From: an uncultured Planctomycetales bacterium | Lineage (GTDB): Bacteria > Omnitrophota > Gorgyraeia > Aquiviventales > Aquiviventaceae | Assembly: GCA_964373835.1 (NCBI GenBank) | Contig: CAYJWN010000003.1 | Coordinates: forward strand, 1-55,205 | Direction: 5' to 3' | Length of the DNA stretch: 55,205 nt | Part shown: positions 2,123-45,868 of the stretch, piece by piece | How positions within the stretch are numbered: the stretch's first letter is position 1 | How the letters are laid out: each line of letters begins with the position of its first letter | The notes under the pieces: model-generated | What the model saw: only the letters and a program-made list of their open reading frames with translations | What the model was told of the DNA's origin: nothing | Databases searched by the model: none | Position numbers and translations under genes: made by a program

Positions 2123-2584
2123 ATGAAATGTCCGTTTTGTGGTCATCAGGAAGATAAGGTGGTGGATTCGCGTGCCAGCTCAGACGGCGTGTCCATCCGC
2201 CGGCGGCGCGAGTGCCTGAGCTGCGCGAAACGCTTCACCACGTATGAGCATGTCGAAGAGCAGCCGCTCATGATCGTGAAGAAAGACGGCCGCCGCGAGC
2301 CCTTCGATCGCCACAAGCTGCTGGCGGGCCTCGTCAAGGCGTGCGAGAAGCGGCCCGTCAGCATGGATGACCTGGAGCGGCTGGTGGATGAGCTGGAGCG
2401 GGAGCTCTCCCAGCAGTTTGAGCGGGAAGCGCCCTCCCGCGAGGTCGGGGAGCGCGTCATGAAGCGGCTCCATGCGCTCGACCCGGTCGCCTACGTCCGC
2501 TTTGCGTCGGTCTATCGGGAATTCAAGGACGTCGAGCAGTTCATGCGCGAATTGAAAGACCTCCTGGCTCTCAAAGCGAAGTGA
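2123..2584 (+). CDS. nrdR: Transcriptional repressor NrdR
   Basis: Zinc ribbon [17 protein letters not shown]...CLSC followed by an ATP-cone ([22 protein letters not shown]). Confidence 0.95.
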
Positions 2585-3144
2585 TCGCCGTCGTGGACTT
2601 CGAGCGCGTATTACGGACCCTGCTGGCTGAATTCGAGCGTCTGCAGATCCGCTACGCCACCCTTGGCGGCTTCGCTCTCGGTGTCTTAGGAGTGGCACGG
2701 GCCACGATGGACATGGATTTTCTCGTGCATCGGGACGACCTGAATCGCCTGCGTGAAGTGTTAACCAAGCTAGGCTACCAACGATTCGCCCAGACAGAAA
2801 ACGTGTCCCATTACCGCCATCCAGAGGCGGTGTGGGGATCTGTGGATTTCATCCACGCCTTCAGAGGTCCTTCTCTGGCTGTCCTTGAACGCGCGAAGTC
2901 CTATCCTATTTTCAATCGCACGCAGCAAATTCGAGTGATCGATCCGGAAGACGTCATTGGCTTTAAAGTTCAGGCGATGGCGAATAACCCGCTGCGACGG
3001 ACAAAGGAGCTCGTTGATATCGAGGCCCTGATGGAGCTCCATGGAGCCCAGCTTCAGTGGCAGCGGATTCAGGAATACTTTGAGCTGTTTGAGCTGGGGA
3101 AGGAATTCACAGCACTGAAGGAACGTTTCGGCCATGCTCAGTGA
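2581..3144 (+). CDS. Putative minimal nucleotidyltransferase-fold protein (TA-like accessory gene)
   Basis: GTG start overlaps the nrdR stop (GTGA). Signature [22 protein letters not shown] (GG...DxD). GC falls to about 50% across ~2650-3450. Confidence 0.55.
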
Positions 3145-3346
3145 GGAAGAGAAAAGAGAATTGAGAGCCCTGGCGCGTTCGGGGCAAGTACGGGATGAGT
3201 TTGAGTTCATCCGGAGCGCTTCTCAACGGAAGCCAAGCGAGCGGTCAATCGACGCCTACATATCCTTTCTTACCTGTATGGGTCGCTTGCCAGCAGTGCA
3301 ACCCCCTCCCCGGCCTTTTCCGATTTACACCAACGTCCGCCTGTAA
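3134..3346 (+). CDS. Hypothetical small protein, possible partner of the nucleotidyltransferase
   Basis: 70-aa ORF overlapping the upstream gene by 11 nt within the same low-GC cassette. No motif recognised. Confidence 0.3.
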   Translation: MLSEEEKRELRALARSGQVRDEFEFIRSASQRKPSERSIDAYISFLTCMGRLPAVQPPPRPFPIYTNVRL

Positions 3347-3437: not shown

Positions 3438-3467
3438 TTGACGAGCAGGAAGGGTATCAGGCACACT
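3438..3467 (+). promoter_or_regulatory. Candidate sigma70-type promoter of the structured leader
   Basis: TTGACG, 18 nt, CACACT. The -10 region caggcacacttga resembles caggtacacttaa in front of the riboswitch at 44.1 kb. Confidence 0.3.
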
Positions 3468-3473
3468 TGAACT

Positions 3474-3735
3474 GATAAAGGCAAACCTCCGCCACCCATG
3501 AACCTGCGAGGGGCGGACCCGCCAAGCAATGTGGCGGGCATCGCAAGATGGGGACGTCCCTCGATACGAGGGACCTGGACCCCGCACGCTTTGCTTCGCA
3601 AAGCGAAGCATGCGGGGGACAGGCAAAGCCGCGATCCCAACCACCTGTTTTGGGTCGGCGTAGCCGACCAGGATCGCAGAGCGATCCGGCCGATGGCCGA
3701 AAACAGGTGGTGGGATGTCGGGCTGCCGAAGCATG
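3474..3735 (+). promoter_or_regulatory. Expanded GEMM-I-like (c-di-GMP-I related) structured leader RNA
   Basis: Carries the three GEMM-I signature blocks: AAGGCAAACC (3478-3487), GCAAAGCC (3623-3630), GUCGGGCUGCCGAAG (3717-3731). They are spaced about 250 nt apart and separated by many GNRA- or triloop-capped hairpins. Shares a 26-nt hairpin tip with the riboswitch at 44174-44199. Confidence 0.45.
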
Positions 3736-3754
3736 GTTTTCAGCAGCCCTTTTT
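3720..3754 (+). terminator. Intrinsic terminator forming the expression platform of the leader
   Basis: gggctgc (3720-3726) pairs with gcagccc (3743-3749), followed by ttttt. The 5' strand overlaps the 3' aptamer motif GGGCUGCCGAAG. Confidence 0.55.
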
Positions 3755-3788
3755 GGTTCCGTGATGCGATGGCCAGCGATGAGGGACG

Positions 3789-4151
3789 ATGATTTCAACG
3801 ATACGCCGCATGCTCATCGTTGATGATGAGCCCGATATCTGCGAGTGTCTCAAGGACTTCTTTACCATGCGGGGATTTTCAGTGACCTCCGCGTTCAGCG
3901 GGGAAGAAGCGCTCGAGCGGCTCTCCGAGGAAGCCGCGGACGTGATTCTGCTTGATATCTTGCTGCCGGGCCTGTCCGGCATCGAGGTGCTCAAGCACGT
4001 GAAGGCCTTGAATCCGCAGGCGCGGGTGGTCATGGTCACCGGCCTCGATCAGGACGATCTGCGCACGCAAGCCTGCCGCTACGGCGCAGCCGCCTACATC
4101 ACCAAACCCTTCAACTTTTCCGACGAGACCTGGTCGTCGGTCCTCGCCTAA
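3789..4151 (+). CDS. Stand-alone CheY-like response regulator (receiver domain only)
   Basis: LIVDDEPD, VILLDILLPGLSG (phospho-acceptor Asp context), ITKPF. No output domain. ATG 3810 is an alternative start. Confidence 0.85.
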   Translation: MISTIRRMLIVDDEPDICECLKDFFTMRGFSVTSAFSGEEALERLSEEAADVILLDILLPGLSGIEVLKHVKALNPQARVVMVTGLDQDDLRTQACRYGAAAYITKPFNFSDETWSSVLA

Positions 4152-4158
4152 TTAAACC

Positions 4159-4228
4159 GCTCTAGGCTGTAGGCTCAAGGCTCTAGGCGACTGCCTTTGC
4201 CTAGAGCCTCCAGCCTCAAGCCTAGAGC
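4159..4228. repeat. Heptamer hairpin (CTCTAGG/CTCAAGG units) between convergent genes
   Basis: gctctagg ctgtagg ctcaagg ctctagg c, loop gactgcctttg, then cctagag cctccag cctcaag cctagag c. Confidence 0.85.
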
Positions 4229-4231
4229 GTT

Positions 4232-25073: not shown

Positions 25074-25185
25074 AAGTCAAAAGGCAAAAGTCAAAACGCA
25101 AAACCACAAGTCAAAATTCAAAACCCAGTTGCCTATGGACACTTTTGACTTTTGGGTTGTGGTTTTGCCTTTTGAGTTTTGACTT
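25074..25185. repeat. Heptamer hairpin (AAGTCAA/AAGGCAA units)
   Basis: aagtcaa aaggcaa aagtcaa aacgcaa aaccaca agtcaaa attcaaa accc, loop, then acttttg acttttg ggttgtg gttttgc cttttga gttttga ctt. Confidence 0.85.
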
Positions 25186-43300: not shown

Positions 43301-43655
43301 TCAAGGCGAGCGGCCCTGGTGGCGCACGATCGCCCGGACGTCCTCCCGGTCTTTGGGCCGCTCCGAGACGATCTTGTGGATGACCAAGTCCTCAGGTCGG
43401 CACACCCGAACACGGCGAGTGCCCACCTCTTCGACGACCGCGCGGGCAATCGCCTTGTGTTCATACGGCAGCGTGGCCCAGATGAGGTCGATTGGCACCG
43501 CCTCGGCAGTGTCAAGAGGCAGGACGTGCGTGTCTCGGAGGAACGTGATCGGATTGCGAGGAATCACGTGAAACACGCGTGATGAGCATGTAGGGGATGC
43601 GGTGTGCCTCGAGGAAGGCGGCGAGGAGACCGACCGCGCGTTCGAGGGCGTTCAT
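43301..43655 (-). pseudogene. Decayed nucleotidyltransferase gene (frameshift plus loss of the GG...DxD segment)
   Basis: ATG 43655 overlaps the RHH stop (ATGA) and encodes MNALERAVGLLAAFLEAHRIPYMLI, which parallels [24 protein letters not shown] of the 2581 protein. The frame then shifts at ~43577 into the 91-aa ORF whose RPEDLVIHKIVSERPKDREDV parallels [25 protein letters not shown]. Confidence 0.4.
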
Positions 43656-43954
43656 GCCGCGAGGTGCTTGAGCCGGTCGTGCAGCCGCCGGATGCCGCGC
43701 GCGCGCTCACGCAACGCCGACTCGCTGGGCGCTCGCGTCGCGACGCGCTGGCGGTGGAGCTCCGCCAGCTCGCCGACACGCGACAGCCGGGTGCCGGCTC
43801 CGAACGCGAGCGGTTGACCGGCTTGGGCCACGTAGTGGCGAAGCGCCTCCCGCACCAGCTCGCTCTTCGTCCGATGCTCCCGCCTGGCAAGCTGCTGTGC
43901 TAAGTCGCTCAGGGCCGGTGGGAGCGAAATCGTCCACGTCCTCGTCGCTCGCAT
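43652..43954 (-). CDS. Ribbon-helix-helix (CopG-like) DNA-binding protein, antitoxin-like
   Basis: TISLPPALSDLAQQLARREHRTKSELVREALRHY. The palindrome ttactaagtaa lies just upstream. Confidence 0.65.
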   Translation of the reverse strand: MRATRTWTISLPPALSDLAQQLARREHRTKSELVREALRHYVAQAGQPLAFGAGTRLSRVGELAELHRQRVATRAPSESALRERARGIRRLHDRLKHLAA

Positions 43955-44094: not shown

Positions 44095-44123
44095 TAACGT
44101 GTTAGGAAAGAGTACCATCTCCC

Positions 44124-44223
44124 GATAAGGGCAAACCCGGAGCAATCCGGGGACGCAAAACCACCGGCCCCAGACGCTTTGCTTCGCAAAGCGAAGCATC
44201 TGGGGTAGCGGGGTTACCGAAGG
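44124..44223 (+). promoter_or_regulatory. GEMM-I (c-di-GMP-I) riboswitch aptamer
   Basis: Block-by-block match to the Vibrio Vc2 aptamer as I recall it: AAGGGCAAACC, CGGA-GCAA-UCCG (GNRA-capped P2), GGGACGCAAAACC, long P3 hairpin, GUAGCGGGGUUACCGAAGG. SD GAAGGAG (44219-44225) sits in the 3' strand. Confidence 0.85.
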
Positions 44224-44230
44224 AGTCGCG

Positions 44231-45868
44231 ATGGATCACCAGACGCCACGCCGAGTGGGGGGGATTCCCCTCCAGCATGACCACGGCGCGGCCTTGTTGT
44301 TGGCGGTGTACCTCGTCTCGCTGACCCTCCTCCTCTTAGGCGGCGTCTCGCTTCAGCGCACCACCACCGAAGTCCGCTCCGCCGAAGTCTCCCGCGATCT
44401 GCACCAGGCGTTCTGGCTGGCAGAGGGCGCGCTGGATAGCTATACCGCCAACACCAAGCGGGGCACGGCGGACGACCTCAAAGGTAACATCATGTCCACC
44501 CCCCTGGGGACCTGGGAGGTGAACGAGGTGGTCCCGCGACCAGATCAGCCATTTTACTCCGAGATCTTCGACAAGAACGACGGGCAGGTCATCACCTCCG
44601 GCAAACAGCGCGCGCTGAACCTGTACCAGCGCTCGACGAAACAGGTCGTTGGAGAGGGGATCGCGGAGGGCCGCACGCAGCGGGTGAGCGCCTCCGTCGT
44701 CGAAGAGGCGCCGCTGCGTGGCATCTGGGCCAACGGGACGATCGCGGTGGGCGGCGGGCGCGGGATCAACCCCGGGCAGATGTTCCTCTCCGGCGATCTC
44801 CACTCCCAGCTCGGCACGGTGGTCTCGACGATCGAATCGGCCACGCCGTTCGACAAGCTGATGTTCGACGGCCTCATTAAAGTGCCGCCGGAAAAGGCGG
44901 CAGCCCCGCTTGCAGAGAAGTTGGAGGACTGGGCCGGTAAAGCCAGCAACGAACTGAAGAGCATCAAGGAGGGGTACAAGCTCATCGAGGGGTTCCTGCA
45001 GGAGGACCTATCGGAGGTCGGCGGGAGCTACAGCGACGTCGATTTCATCTCCAGCGCGGCCACGTCGACGTCCGAGCACATCAAGGGCAGCCTCTCGGTC
45101 GGGCTGTCGGGGAAGCTGGCCTCCTTCAAGGGCTATACCCCAAGTTTGTGCGCGAATACCGTGTACCTCACGAGCTCCAAGGTGGTGGTGAAGGATAACT
45201 TTCAATGCAACAACGGCTCCAGCAATACCCCGGGGTTGAGCTGTGGCAGCGGAACGGTGTCCGATCTTGATCCAGCGATTGGCAGCATCTGGATGTGCGC
45301 CAATGCGGTCGTCCCCGCATCCCCCCGCATGTGGGTCGATACGATGATGGGCAGCGAGCCGGAGCTCGTCTTCCAGCAACCCACCACCCTGGTCCTCAGC
45401 GGCGGGGCACAGATCAACACGGTTGACCCGACGACGGGCAAGGGGACCCCGCTGGCGTCGCCCTTCTCGTTCCTCACGACGGATATCGTGGAAACGGCCT
45501 TTCACGTCCAAGCCAACTGGAATGTCAGTTTTGGGGCGAAGCTATCAGGGATGGACTACTTCGGCAAGCCCCTGCCGGTGAATCTGTACCAGCAGGAGAA
45601 TAGCGTCCTGCCGGGCGTGAAACCTGGCCTGGTGTTTCTCAAGCCCGGCGATCAATTCCAGGGCTCGGTCTATGCGCCCAACTCGTTGGTCCTGGTGCGG
45701 TCCAGGACCTGCGCGGCAGCGAACACCTGCTCCGGCCTCCTGCAGATGCCGTACATCGTGGGCAACGAAGTGGTGATCGAGTTGGAGTCCGATCAGCTGC
45801 AAATCGGCTCGCAGGAGCCCAAGCCAGAAGACGTCACCACGAGCCTCTTGAGCTGGTCCAATCAATAG
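44231..45868 (+). CDS. Large secreted protein with PilX-N-like (minor pilin-like) N-terminus
   Basis: HGAALLLAVYLVSLTLLLLGGVSLQRTTTEVRSAEVSRDLHQAFWLAEGAL matches the PilX N-terminal pattern. C-terminal FQGSVYAPNSLVLV motif resembles that of TadG/PilX-like proteins. The rest is unassigned. Confidence 0.55.
   Translation: MDHQTPRRVGGIPLQHDHGAALLLAVYLVSLTLLLLGGVSLQRTTTEVRSAEVSRDLHQAFWLAEGALDSYTANTKRGTADDLKGNIMSTPLGTWEVNEVVPRPDQPFYSEIFDKNDGQVITSGKQRALNLYQRSTKQVVGEGIAEGRTQRVSASVVEEAPLRGIWANGTIAVGGGRGINPGQMFLSGDLHSQLGTVVSTIESATPFDKLMFDGLIKVPPEKAAAPLAEKLEDWAGKASNELKSIKEGYKLIEGFLQEDLSEVGGSYSDVDFISSAATSTSEHIKGSLSVGLSGKLASFKGYTPSLCANTVYLTSSKVVVKDNFQCNNGSSNTPGLSCGSGTVSDLDPAIGSIWMCANAVVPASPRMWVDTMMGSEPELVFQQPTTLVLSGGAQINTVDPTTGKGTPLASPFSFLTTDIVETAFHVQANWNVSFGAKLSGMDYFGKPLPVNLYQQENSVLPGVKPGLVFLKPGDQFQGSVYAPNSLVLVRSRTCAAANTCSGLLQMPYIVGNEVVIELESDQLQIGSQEPKPEDVTTSLLSWSNQ

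What the first reader, a model, noticed from the sequence alone, without database searches (positions are those of the whole stretch)
3474..3754. Giant GEMM-I-like leader with terminator platform upstream of a stand-alone response regulator
The three signature blocks of GEMM-I are present in the right order: AAGGCAAACC (3478), GGGGGACAGGCAAAGCC (3613-3630) and GUCGGGCUGCCGAAG (3717). The P2 position holds ~125 nt folding into about five hairpins, including CAUC-GCAA-GAUG and GUCCCUCG-AUAC-GAGGGAC. The P3 position holds an 88-nt arm with a 16-bp stem (CCCAACCACCUGUUUU/GAAAACAGGUGGUGGG) capped by three triloop hairpins. The 3' block overlaps the 5' strand of a terminator (3720-3754, followed by UUUUU), the classic riboswitch layout. 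If it binds ligand, it would be a much expanded aptamer variant and would link c-di-GMP to a CheY-like protein. It could instead be a different RNA that reuses GEMM modules.
Basis: partly seen in the sequence, partly recalled or inferred. Interest (0 to 1): 0.7.

Follow-up and report, generated by a model that had tools for sequence, protein, structure and literature searches.

The report
Oversized c-di-GMP riboswitch with inserted hairpins
The leader in front of a small response-regulator gene is a known type of c-di-GMP-sensing RNA switch, swollen from about 80 to about 260 bases by extra hairpins at three sites; this is unusual in form and is missed by standard annotation, but it is not a new kind of element.

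Summary
All three GEMM-I blocks, five hairpins between blocks 1 and 2, an 88-nt P3 arm and a terminator hairpin plus U5 are at the stated coordinates (0 of 100 shuffles match the blocks).

Rfam misses the element (16.9 bits against a threshold of 59). Orthology identifies it. The same 120-aa stand-alone response regulator in other Omnitrophota (NrdR–leader–RR–PpiD–HisG) has a GEMM-I aptamer and terminator in 10 of 12 distinct leaders. Three of those are compact and pass Rfam (61–65 bits).

The window's leader is the consensus aptamer plus three insertions:
- 3488–3538, in the 5' strand of P2 (shared with a 95% relative).
- 3556–3622, between the conserved GAC bulge and the closing G-C pairs. 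This two-hairpin site recurs in three other orthologs.
- A P3 arm, with a counterpart in one ortholog.

The true distal P2 is CAUC-GCAA-GAUG and the true GGGGAC is at 3550–3555.

G20, A47 and C92 equivalents are canonical, so c-di-GMP is the predicted ligand. The terminator shares its 5' arm with P3/P1, which predicts an ON switch.

Ligand binding is untested, and the insertions are recent. Verdict: a new variant of a known kind, of moderate interest.

The parts
3438..3467 (+). Putative promoter: -35 TTGACG (3438-3443), 18-nt spacer, -10-like CACACT (3462-3467)
   Evidence: CTTGACG-N13-(A/G)TCAGGCA(C/T)A(C/G)TT is conserved upstream of all orthologous leaders, including those that lost the riboswitch. 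The simple sigma-70 scan does not flag it. Function is inferred.
3473..3487 (+). P1 5' strand (3473-3474), J1/2 with G3480 (the G20 equivalent), G3481-C3482 closing pairs, AAA internal loop, and C3486-C3487 (start of P2)
   Evidence: Matches the GEMM-I consensus AAAGGCAAACC at 11 of 11 positions. Pairs G3481-C3624 and C3482-G3623 are invariant in 10 orthologs.
3488..3538 (+). Insertion site 1: 51 nt with two hairpins (H1 3489-3516, H2 3518-3538) inside the 5' strand of P2
   Evidence: Absent from compact orthologs. Present, with 3 substitutions, in L001, whose RR is 95% identical. Folds at -24.7 kcal/mol, z = -2.3.
3539..3555 (+). Distal P2 hairpin CAUC-GCAA-GAUG (3539-3550, GNRA loop), P2 3' strand G3551-G3552, and the conserved bulge G3553-A3554-C3555 (C3555 is the C44 equivalent)
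   Evidence: Aligned by MAFFT with the P2 3' strand and bulge of all orthologs. All six P2 pairs covary across 10 sequences and are 100% paired.
3556..3622 (+). Insertion site 2: 67 nt with two hairpins (H4 3556-3574, H5 3580-3617) between the GAC bulge and the closing G-C pairs
   Evidence: A clean indel relative to L001. Folds at -47.3 kcal/mol, z = -8.9. Two-hairpin insertions of 47-55 nt sit at the same site in L086, L169 and L005.
3586..3611 (+). Apex of H5: 26 nt identical to the P3 apex of the second GEMM-I aptamer in the window (44174-44199)
   Evidence: blastn 26/26, E 4e-9, the only significant repeat of the leader in the window. The flanking stems CCCCGC/GCGGGG and CCCCAG/CUGGGG differ by two compensatory pair changes.
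3623..3637 (+). G3623-C3624 (pair with C3482, G3481), A3625 (the A47 equivalent), AAA linker, and the P3 5' strand 3627-3637
   Evidence: GCAAAGCC is invariant in orthologs. The P3 basal pairs covary.
3638..3712 (+). P3 arm: stem with a bulged A and three apical triloop hairpins.
   Evidence: Region 3631-3720 folds at -57 kcal/mol, z = -7.9. L004 has the same architecture, a long stem plus three apical hairpins of which the first has a GUA loop. L001 has a short GCAA-capped P3 instead.
3713..3731 (+). P3 3' strand 3713-3724 with bulge U3716-G3717 (G3717 is the G83 equivalent), J3/1 G3725-C3726 (C3726 is the C92 equivalent), and the P1 3' strand CGAAG 3727-3731
   Evidence: GGGCUGCCG is invariant in 10 orthologs. 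R1, a covariance model built without the window, hits 3602-3731 at 31.7 bits, E 3e-6.
3720..3754 (+). Intrinsic terminator: stem GGGCUGC (3720-3726) / GCAGCCC (3743-3749) with an inner 4-bp stem, then U5 (3750-3754). The 5' arm is shared with P3, J3/1 and P1.
   Evidence: Forms in the MFE of the full leader while basal P3 and P1 open. The stem and U-run are present in all 10 orthologs, 91% paired against at most 59% when slid.
3781..4151 (+). RBS GAGGGA (3781-3786) and the stand-alone response regulator CDS (3789-4151, 120 aa)
   Evidence: PF00072 only. There are 300 homologs at E <= 1e-20, the named ones from Candidatus Omnitrophica, and synteny NrdR-leader-RR-PpiD(-)-HisG is conserved.
44121..44222 (+). 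Paralogous compact GEMM-I aptamer that carries the same 26-nt hairpin apex in its P3 (context, not part of the leader)
   Evidence: RF03167 at 69.6 bits, above the gathering score of 59. R1 scores it at 68.8 bits.

Best explanation
The leader 3472-3754 is the ortholog of a class I c-di-GMP (GEMM-I) riboswitch that controls a conserved stand-alone response regulator in Omnitrophota. Autonomous hairpin modules at three sites have expanded it to a ~260-nt aptamer: the 5' strand of P2, the 3' side of the P2 internal loop, and the tip of P3.

Shown:
- Homology to orthologous GEMM-I leaders.
- The mapping of the core nucleotides.
- Covariation of P2 and P3.
- A conserved terminator that overlaps the aptamer.

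Inferred:
- Transcription starts near 3473 from the conserved TTGACG/CACACT promoter.
- Without ligand, GGGCUGC (3720-3726) pairs with GCAGCCC (3743-3749) and transcription stops at U5.
- With c-di-GMP bound at the junction (G3480, A3625 and C3726, with the C3555-G3717 interhelical pair), basal P3 and P1 hold that segment. The terminator then cannot form and the regulator gene is transcribed, making this an ON switch.
- The inserted hairpins are tolerated peripheral elements, possibly helping the fold, and are not the sensor.
For: 1. Orthology. 10 of 12 distinct orthologous RR leaders carry a GEMM-I aptamer plus terminator at the same place. Three pass Rfam gathering (L167 65.0, L166 64.6, L002 60.9 bits). 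None of 158 non-orthologous RR loci has one.

2. Alignment. Two MAFFT runs on untrimmed sequences align the window's 3477-3487, 3539-3555, 3623-3637 and 3713-3731 with the ortholog cores and leave three insertion blocks. With the two internal insertions removed, the window reads CUGAUAAAGGCAAACCCAUCGCAAGAUGGGGACGCAAAGCCGCGAUCC...GGAUGUCGGGCUGCCGAAG, which matches every invariant column.

3. Covariation. 98% of cells are paired, 10 of 20 pairs change on both sides, and 0 of 500 shuffles reach this. Slid controls give at most 42.5%.

4. Energetics. Its 9.1 kcal/mol gap to the MFE lies within the ortholog range of 0.4-10.3, which includes the Rfam-passing orthologs.

5. Every insertion has a counterpart. 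Site 1 is in L001. Site 2 is in L169, L086 and L005, each folding into exactly two hairpins (z = -2.1 to -6.2). The P3 arm architecture is in L004.

6. The ligand-contact and tertiary-pair nucleotides are those named for Vc2 (G20, A47, C92, C44-G83; PMC4744006).

7. A terminator overlapping the 3' hairpin, read as an ON mechanism, is the layout originally described for GEMM (PMC1950547).
Against: - Rfam scores the window at only 16.9 bits (E 0.21), with a partial and partly wrong alignment. My ortholog-trained model finds it only as two pieces, 31.7 and 12.3 bits.
- Site 2 splits the universally conserved C44 from G45, inside the hairpin described as the most conserved part of GEMM.
- The window differs from its 95% relative by two clean indels in an otherwise near-identical leader. 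An intact core here therefore says little about selection since the insertions.
- The riboswitch has been lost in two orthologous lineages, L168 and L170-173, so it is dispensable.
- P1 is only 2-3 bp.
- Covariation was counted on an alignment I trimmed according to the model.
- No GGDEF, EAL or PilZ gene was found in the window.
- There are no binding or termination data.
Confidence: 0.65

Rival explanations
1. Decaying riboswitch. The element descends from GEMM-I, but the recent 67-nt insertion next to C44, with or without the P3 arm, has abolished ligand-dependent folding. The leader now acts as a constitutive attenuator, or is on its way to loss.
For: - The insertions are recent, clean indels relative to a 95% relative. 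Core conservation therefore cannot show selection.
- Two orthologous lineages have already lost the aptamer. L170-173 keep only the 5' block and L168 keeps nothing.
- The full-leader MFE forms the terminator.
- Scores against curated and custom models are far below threshold.
Against: - Three older lineages carry two-hairpin insertions at the same site together with an intact core, terminator and promoter (L169, L086, L005).
- The inserted segments are self-contained hairpins that do not compete with core pairs in the predicted folds.
- The nearest-neighbour cost of the aptamer fold is no higher than in compact orthologs.
Confidence: 0.2
2. P2 is CCUCCGC (3486-3492) paired with GCGGGGG (3612-3618) and encloses all five hairpins as one giant P2. 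GGGGGACAG-GCAAAGCC is then the functional second block.
For: - The 7 pairs are possible.
- The second GGGGAC (3615-3620) lies only 2 nt from GCAAAGCC.
- Rfam's own partial alignment also uses GCGGGGGAC as the P2 3' strand, paired with 3579-3585.
Against: - This fold is 8.2 kcal/mol less stable than the homology fold, because it must break H1 and H5.
- L001 has an identical 5' half and only the first GGGGAC.
- L169, L086 and L005 have no GAC at the 3' end of their insertions.
- It would detach the GCAA hairpin from P2.
Confidence: 0.07
3. The extra domains carry a function of their own. For example, H5, whose 26-nt apex is identical in two separate c-di-GMP riboswitches of this genome, could be a docking site for the GCAA loop, a protein-binding site or an RNA-RNA pairing site. 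It would then add a second input or coordinate the two switches.
For: - The apex is 26/26 identical while the flanking stem shows two compensatory pair changes.
- The two-hairpin site-2 domain recurs in 4 of 10 orthologous leaders.
- L006 also repeats its P3 apex hairpin next to the RBS.
Against: - There are only two copies, in one genome. Identity may simply reflect a recent copy or gene conversion.
- H4 and H5 show no sequence conservation among the four insertion-bearing leaders.
- No Rfam family matches the inserts.
- The motif is absent from all 173 fetched loci and from viral contigs.
Confidence: 0.08

Closest known systems
Class I c-di-GMP riboswitch (GEMM-I; Rfam RF01051, clan CL00126; Vc2 of Vibrio cholerae, PDB 3IRW)
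   Same: - AAAGGCAAACC, GGGAC, GC-AAA-GCC and GGGCUGCCGAAG blocks in the right order.
- P1/P2/P3 junction.
- GNRA-capped P2.
- G20, A47, C92 and C44/G83 equivalents.
- Terminator whose 5' arm overlaps the 3' strand of P3.
   Different: The aptamer is about 260 nt instead of about 75-110. There are 51 nt inside the 5' strand of the 6-bp P2 stem, 67 nt between C44 and G45, and a branched 75-nt P3 tip. It scores 16.9 bits against a 59-bit threshold.
c-di-GMP-I-GGC variant (Rfam RF03167)
   Same: This is the best-scoring Rfam model for the window's two aptamers and for all orthologs.
   Different: From my own knowledge of Weinberg et al. 2017, and consistent with the model consensus GCGAAgCc, the variant is defined by G at the A47 position. 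The window has A3625 (GCAAAGCC), and so do the 44121 aptamer and all orthologs. By its key nucleotides it is the canonical type.
3',3'-cGAMP riboswitch (GEMM-Ib, Geobacter)
   Same: Same fold and clan.
   Different: From my own knowledge, this type is marked by A at position 20. The window has G3480. One ortholog, L086, does have A there (CAAAAGCAAACC).
Compact orthologous leaders in other Omnitrophota (L167, L166, L002)
   Same: Same promoter, same core, same terminator and same downstream RR, in the same NrdR-RR-PpiD-HisG neighbourhood.
   Different: These are 75-121 nt, have a contiguous 2-bp + 3-nt loop + 6-bp + GNRA hairpin, and pass Rfam gathering.

Membership tests
c-di-GMP-I / GEMM-I (RF01051, clan CL00126) | Curated covariance-model score at or above the gathering threshold | tested here: not met
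   No hit in gathering mode. The best permissive hit is 16.9 bits against 59, covers 3565-3731 and has a wrong 5' half. Only 3 of 10 orthologous leaders pass.
c-di-GMP-I / GEMM-I | Conserved core nucleotides: AAAGGCAAACC, GG-GAC, GC, AAA linker, GCC... and ...GGCUGCCGAAG | tested here: met
   All columns invariant in 10 orthologs are matched by the window once the insertions are set aside. The ordered block pattern occurs once, against 0 of 100 shuffles.
c-di-GMP-I / GEMM-I | P2 and P3 helices supported by covariation, closed by P1 | tested here: met
   98% of cells paired. 6 of 6 P2 pairs and 4 of 10 P3 pairs change on both sides. 0 of 500 shuffles reach this. Caveats: the alignment was trimmed, and P1 is only 2-3 bp.
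c-di-GMP-I / GEMM-I | Compact first hairpin: 2 bp + 3-nt internal loop + 6 bp + GNRA loop, described as highly conserved (PMC1950547) | tested here: not met
   All the pieces are present (2 bp, AAA/GAC loop, CC+CAUC / GAUG+GG, GCAA). They are interrupted by 51 nt in the 5' strand and by 67 nt between the GAC and the closing G-C pairs.
c-di-GMP-I / GEMM-I | Ligand-contacting nucleotides G20, A47 and C92, and the interhelical C44-G83 pair (PMC4744006) | tested here: met
   G3480, A3625, C3726, C3555 and G3717 are present at the aligned positions. The three-dimensional contacts cannot be tested.
c-di-GMP-I / GEMM-I | Binds c-di-GMP and changes expression in response | not testable with these tools
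c-di-GMP-I / GEMM-I | Expression platform: terminator whose 5' arm competes with the 3' strand of the second hairpin | tested here: met
   Hairpin 3720-3749 plus U5 shares 3720-3731 with P3, J3/1 and P1. It is conserved in 10 of 10 orthologs.
c-di-GMP-I-GGC variant (RF03167) | G at the A47-equivalent position | tested here: not met
   The window has A3625 (GCAAAGCC). The 44121 aptamer has GCAAAACC.
cGAMP riboswitch (GEMM-Ib) | A at the G20-equivalent position | tested here: not met
   The window has G3480 (AAAGGC).

The most novel reading that the evidence does not exclude
The two-hairpin domain between C44 and G45, seen in 4 of 10 orthologous leaders, would define a functional subclass of GEMM-I rather than neutral baggage. 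The H5 apex, kept identical in two separate c-di-GMP riboswitches of one genome, supports this reading. Under it, an accessory module docks the GCAA loop, or binds a shared factor or partner RNA. That would tune or couple c-di-GMP responses in Omnitrophota.
Probability: 0.12. Interest if true: 0.65.

Novelty: new variant of a known kind. Interest (0 to 1): 0.4.

Why it matters
- The hairpin regarded as the most conserved part of the c-di-GMP-I aptamer can carry large structured insertions at two internal positions, including right next to the nucleotide that makes the universal interhelical pair.
- Such variants escape curated covariance models. Here 7 of 10 orthologous leaders fall below the Rfam threshold, so riboswitch counts in uncultured phyla are probably too low.
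- The locus shows riboswitch architecture changing fast. Modules of about 70 nt were gained or lost within 5% protein divergence, and some lineages lost the aptamer outright.
- A natural 260-nt version of a well-understood aptamer could be a convenient subject for cryo-EM and for folding studies.
- It does not reveal a new ligand, a new mechanism or a new regulatory link. GEMM upstream of cheY-type genes has been known since 2007.

Tried and rejected
- Both large collection scans went on the response regulator. The peptide patterns mostly hit generic regulators, and each scan gave only one ortholog (L006, L086). The other 158 loci served only as a negative control.
- Exact-protein look-ups returned no DNA for the 88% relative P0002 or for P0024, and nothing for the window's own protein.
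The alignment from model R1 swallows P2 plus the insert as a local end, so it could not train insert states.
- The 26-nt hairpin is absent from all 168 loci fetched by that point and from viral contigs.
- The 545-aa ORF behind the second riboswitch and the 548-aa ORF behind the L004 riboswitch are unrelated.
- The single GGEEF motif in the window is not a GGDEF domain.
- The simple promoter and terminator scan found nothing.
- The R1 hit at 25079-25160 is an AT-rich palindrome, not an aptamer.
- Coding explanations are rejected: the overlapping ORFs have no family match.
- The miRNA, snoRNA and lncRNA matches from Rfam are chance-level.
- Literature searches found no description of these insertions or of Omnitrophota riboswitches.

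Full report
**Observation.** An ordered search for AAAGGCAAACC, GCAAAGCC and GGGCTGCCGAAG with the observed spacings finds this one site and nothing in 100 shuffles.

The 296 nt around the element fold far better than shuffled sequence (-160.7 kcal/mol, z = -8.85). The described hairpins are all predicted:
- Five hairpins lie between blocks 1 and 2.
- A long P3 stem (15 bp plus one bulged A) carries three triloop hairpins.
- A hairpin at 3720-3749 is followed by UUUUU.

The downstream gene (3789-4151) encodes a 120-aa protein with only a receiver domain. ORFs overlapping the region on either strand match no protein family.

**What curated models say.** Rfam in gathering mode finds no family at 3474-3754. 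It does find a clear GEMM-I aptamer elsewhere in the window, at 44121-44222 (69.6 bits). In permissive mode the best match at the finding is 16.9 bits (E 0.21). It covers 3565-3731 and treats hairpin H5 as if it were P2. A second fragment, 3471-3527, scores 11.7 bits. On its own this is not evidence of membership.

**Orthology settles the identity.** The regulator has about 300 close homologs, and the named ones come from Candidatus Omnitrophica. The contigs I could fetch show a conserved neighbourhood: SHMT, NrdR, leader, regulator, PpiD-like gene on the other strand, HisG.

Twelve distinct orthologous leaders were recovered, counting the window.
- Ten have a GEMM-I aptamer followed by a terminator.
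- Three of these are compact and pass Rfam's threshold: L167 65.0, L166 64.6 and L002 60.9 bits.
- The others score 57.5 (L006), 41.8 (L004), 41.2 (L001), 34.3 (L169) and 21.6 (L086). L005 has no hit.
- Two lineages have lost the aptamer. L168 has none, and L170-173 keep only the 5' block.

All of them share a promoter-like CTTGACG-N13-TCAGGCACAGTT just upstream. A covariance model I built from nine orthologs without the window (R1) finds no aptamer in 158 non-orthologous regulator loci from other phyla. The association is therefore specific to this gene family.

**Anatomy of the window's leader.** Two MAFFT alignments of the untrimmed leaders agree. The window equals the consensus aptamer plus three insertions.

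- Site 1 (3488-3538) is two hairpins inside the 5' strand of P2. The 95% relative L001 shares them with three substitutions.
- The hairpin CAUC-GCAA-GAUG (3539-3550) is the real distal P2 with its GNRA loop. G3551-G3552 pair with C3487-C3486, and G3553-A3554-C3555 is the conserved bulge.
- Site 2 (3556-3622) is two hairpins, H4 and H5, between that bulge and G3623-C3624, which close the 2-bp stem with C3482-G3481.
- Site 3 is the branched P3 tip (3638-3712).

With sites 1 and 2 removed, the window matches every invariant column of the ortholog alignment. On that alignment:
- 98% of cells are paired.
- All six P2 pairs and four P3 pairs change on both sides.
- No shuffle in 500 reaches these values, and slid controls drop to 29-43%.

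The alignment was trimmed according to my model, which is a caveat. However, the untrimmed alignments place the same blocks together.

Pairing CCUCCGC with GCGGGGG costs 8.2 kcal/mol relative to the homology fold (-131.8 against -140.0). It also requires breaking H1 and H5. L001 has the same 5' half and only the first GGGGAC. The other site-2 insertions do not end in GAC.

**Are the insertions tolerated?** Each has a counterpart elsewhere.
- L169, L086 and L005 carry insertions of 55, 47 and 50 nt at exactly site 2.
- These are unrelated in sequence, except for short similarities between the window and L169.
- Each folds into exactly two adjacent hairpins, and each sits in a leader with an intact core, terminator and promoter.
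- L004 has a P3 arm of the same design: a long stem and three apical hairpins, the first with a GUA loop.

The nearest-neighbour cost of adopting the aptamer fold is 9.1 kcal/mol above the MFE in the window. This is inside the 0.4-10.3 range of the orthologs, and the three that pass Rfam cost 8.4-10.3.

Against this, the window and L001 differ by two clean indels in a leader that is otherwise almost identical. The events are recent, and the intact core of the window is not in itself evidence of selection after the insertions.

**Ligand and mechanism.** The positions that contact c-di-GMP in Vc2 (G20, A47, C92) and the universal interhelical pair (C44-G83) are cited from PMC4744006. They map to G3480, A3625, C3726, C3555 and G3717.

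The best Rfam model is the 'GGC' variant. Its consensus, however, has G where the window and all orthologs have A. By its key nucleotides this is the canonical c-di-GMP type.

The terminator's 5' arm (3720-3726, extended by the inner stem to 3731) is the 3' strand of basal P3, then J3/1 including C3726, then P1. Aptamer and terminator therefore exclude each other. In the full-leader MFE the terminator forms and basal P3 and P1 open. The stem and U-run are present in all ten orthologs.

This is the layout described for GEMM in 2007, with the same prediction that ligand increases expression (PMC1950547). That paper also lists cheY among GEMM-associated genes, so the link to a CheY-like protein is not new.

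**The shared hairpin.** The 26-nt apex of H5 (3586-3611) is identical to the apex of P3 in the second aptamer (44174-44199). It is the only significant repeat of the leader in the window. The stems beneath it (CCCCGC/GCGGGG and CCCCAG/CUGGGG) differ by two compensatory pairs.

This points either to copying of a module between two riboswitches or to a sequence-specific role. I could not fetch orthologs of the second riboswitch to decide between these. L006 shows a comparable duplication of its P3 apex hairpin next to the ribosome-binding site.

**Verdict.**
- I put about 0.95 on descent from GEMM-I.
- I put about 0.65 on a still-working c-di-GMP ON switch.
- I put about 0.2 on a recently disabled one.

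It is a new variant of a known kind. It is interesting for RNA structure, for annotation sensitivity and for riboswitch evolution. It is not categorically new.

Noticed in passing
window 44121-44222 (with the ORF at 44231-45868): A second, compact GEMM-I aptamer (RF03167 69.6 bits; R1 68.8 bits) lies upstream of a 545-aa ORF that has an N-terminal hydrophobic segment and no Pfam match. Its P3 apex is the same 26 nt as H5 of the finding.
   Followed up: partly
L086 1324-1466: This orthologous leader has A at the G20-equivalent position (CAAAAGCAAACC), the signature associated with cGAMP-selective GEMM-Ib. It also carries a 47-nt two-hairpin insertion at site 2.
   Followed up: no
L168 1-178; L170-L173 upstream of the RR: These orthologous regulator loci keep the conserved promoter but have lost the riboswitch. 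L170-173 retain only ACAAGGGCAAAUUCGCC, and L168 retains nothing.
   Followed up: partly
L004 550-2455: The riboswitch, with a long branched P3, is followed by an extra 548-aa ORF (only a weak DUF4992 hint) inserted before the regulator gene. It is unrelated to the window's 545-aa ORF.
   Followed up: partly
L006 1339-1380 and 1423-1487: The P3 apex hairpin arms (CAATCCCGGTGTCTGGCTC / GTGCCTGACACCGGGAGG) are repeated downstream of the terminator and end in the GGGAGG ribosome-binding site. This could be an extra translational hairpin or a segmental duplication. A second receiver-domain gene lies just upstream of this leader.
   Followed up: partly
window about 4158-4230; L002 1482-1556: An imperfect palindrome built of 7-nt units (CTCTAGG CTGTAGG CTCAAGG ...) lies between the convergent regulator and PpiD-like genes. 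It is conserved in L002/L003, where it gave a spurious miRNA match. It is likely a bidirectional terminator.
   Followed up: no
window 25074-25185: An AT-rich (38% GC) long palindrome of GTCAAAA-like units sits in an intergenic gap of a 63% GC genome. It produced a chance hit to my GEMM model (17.2 bits).
   Followed up: partly
window 2581-3346: An AbiEii-like nucleotidyltransferase gene (PF14907/PF08843) and an overlapping 70-aa ORF are inserted between nrdR and the leader. The end of the 70-aa ORF is also present upstream of the leader in L001, but the cassette is absent from L002, L167 and L005.
   Followed up: no
window, L001-L006, L086, L166, L167, L169: Every aptamer of this group scores best against the 'c-di-GMP-I-GGC' Rfam model, although all have A, not G, at the position that defines that variant. 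Annotation by best clan member would mislabel them.
   Followed up: partly
window 43652-43954 (-): A ribbon-helix-helix / VapB-like antitoxin gene lies just upstream of the second riboswitch.
   Followed up: no
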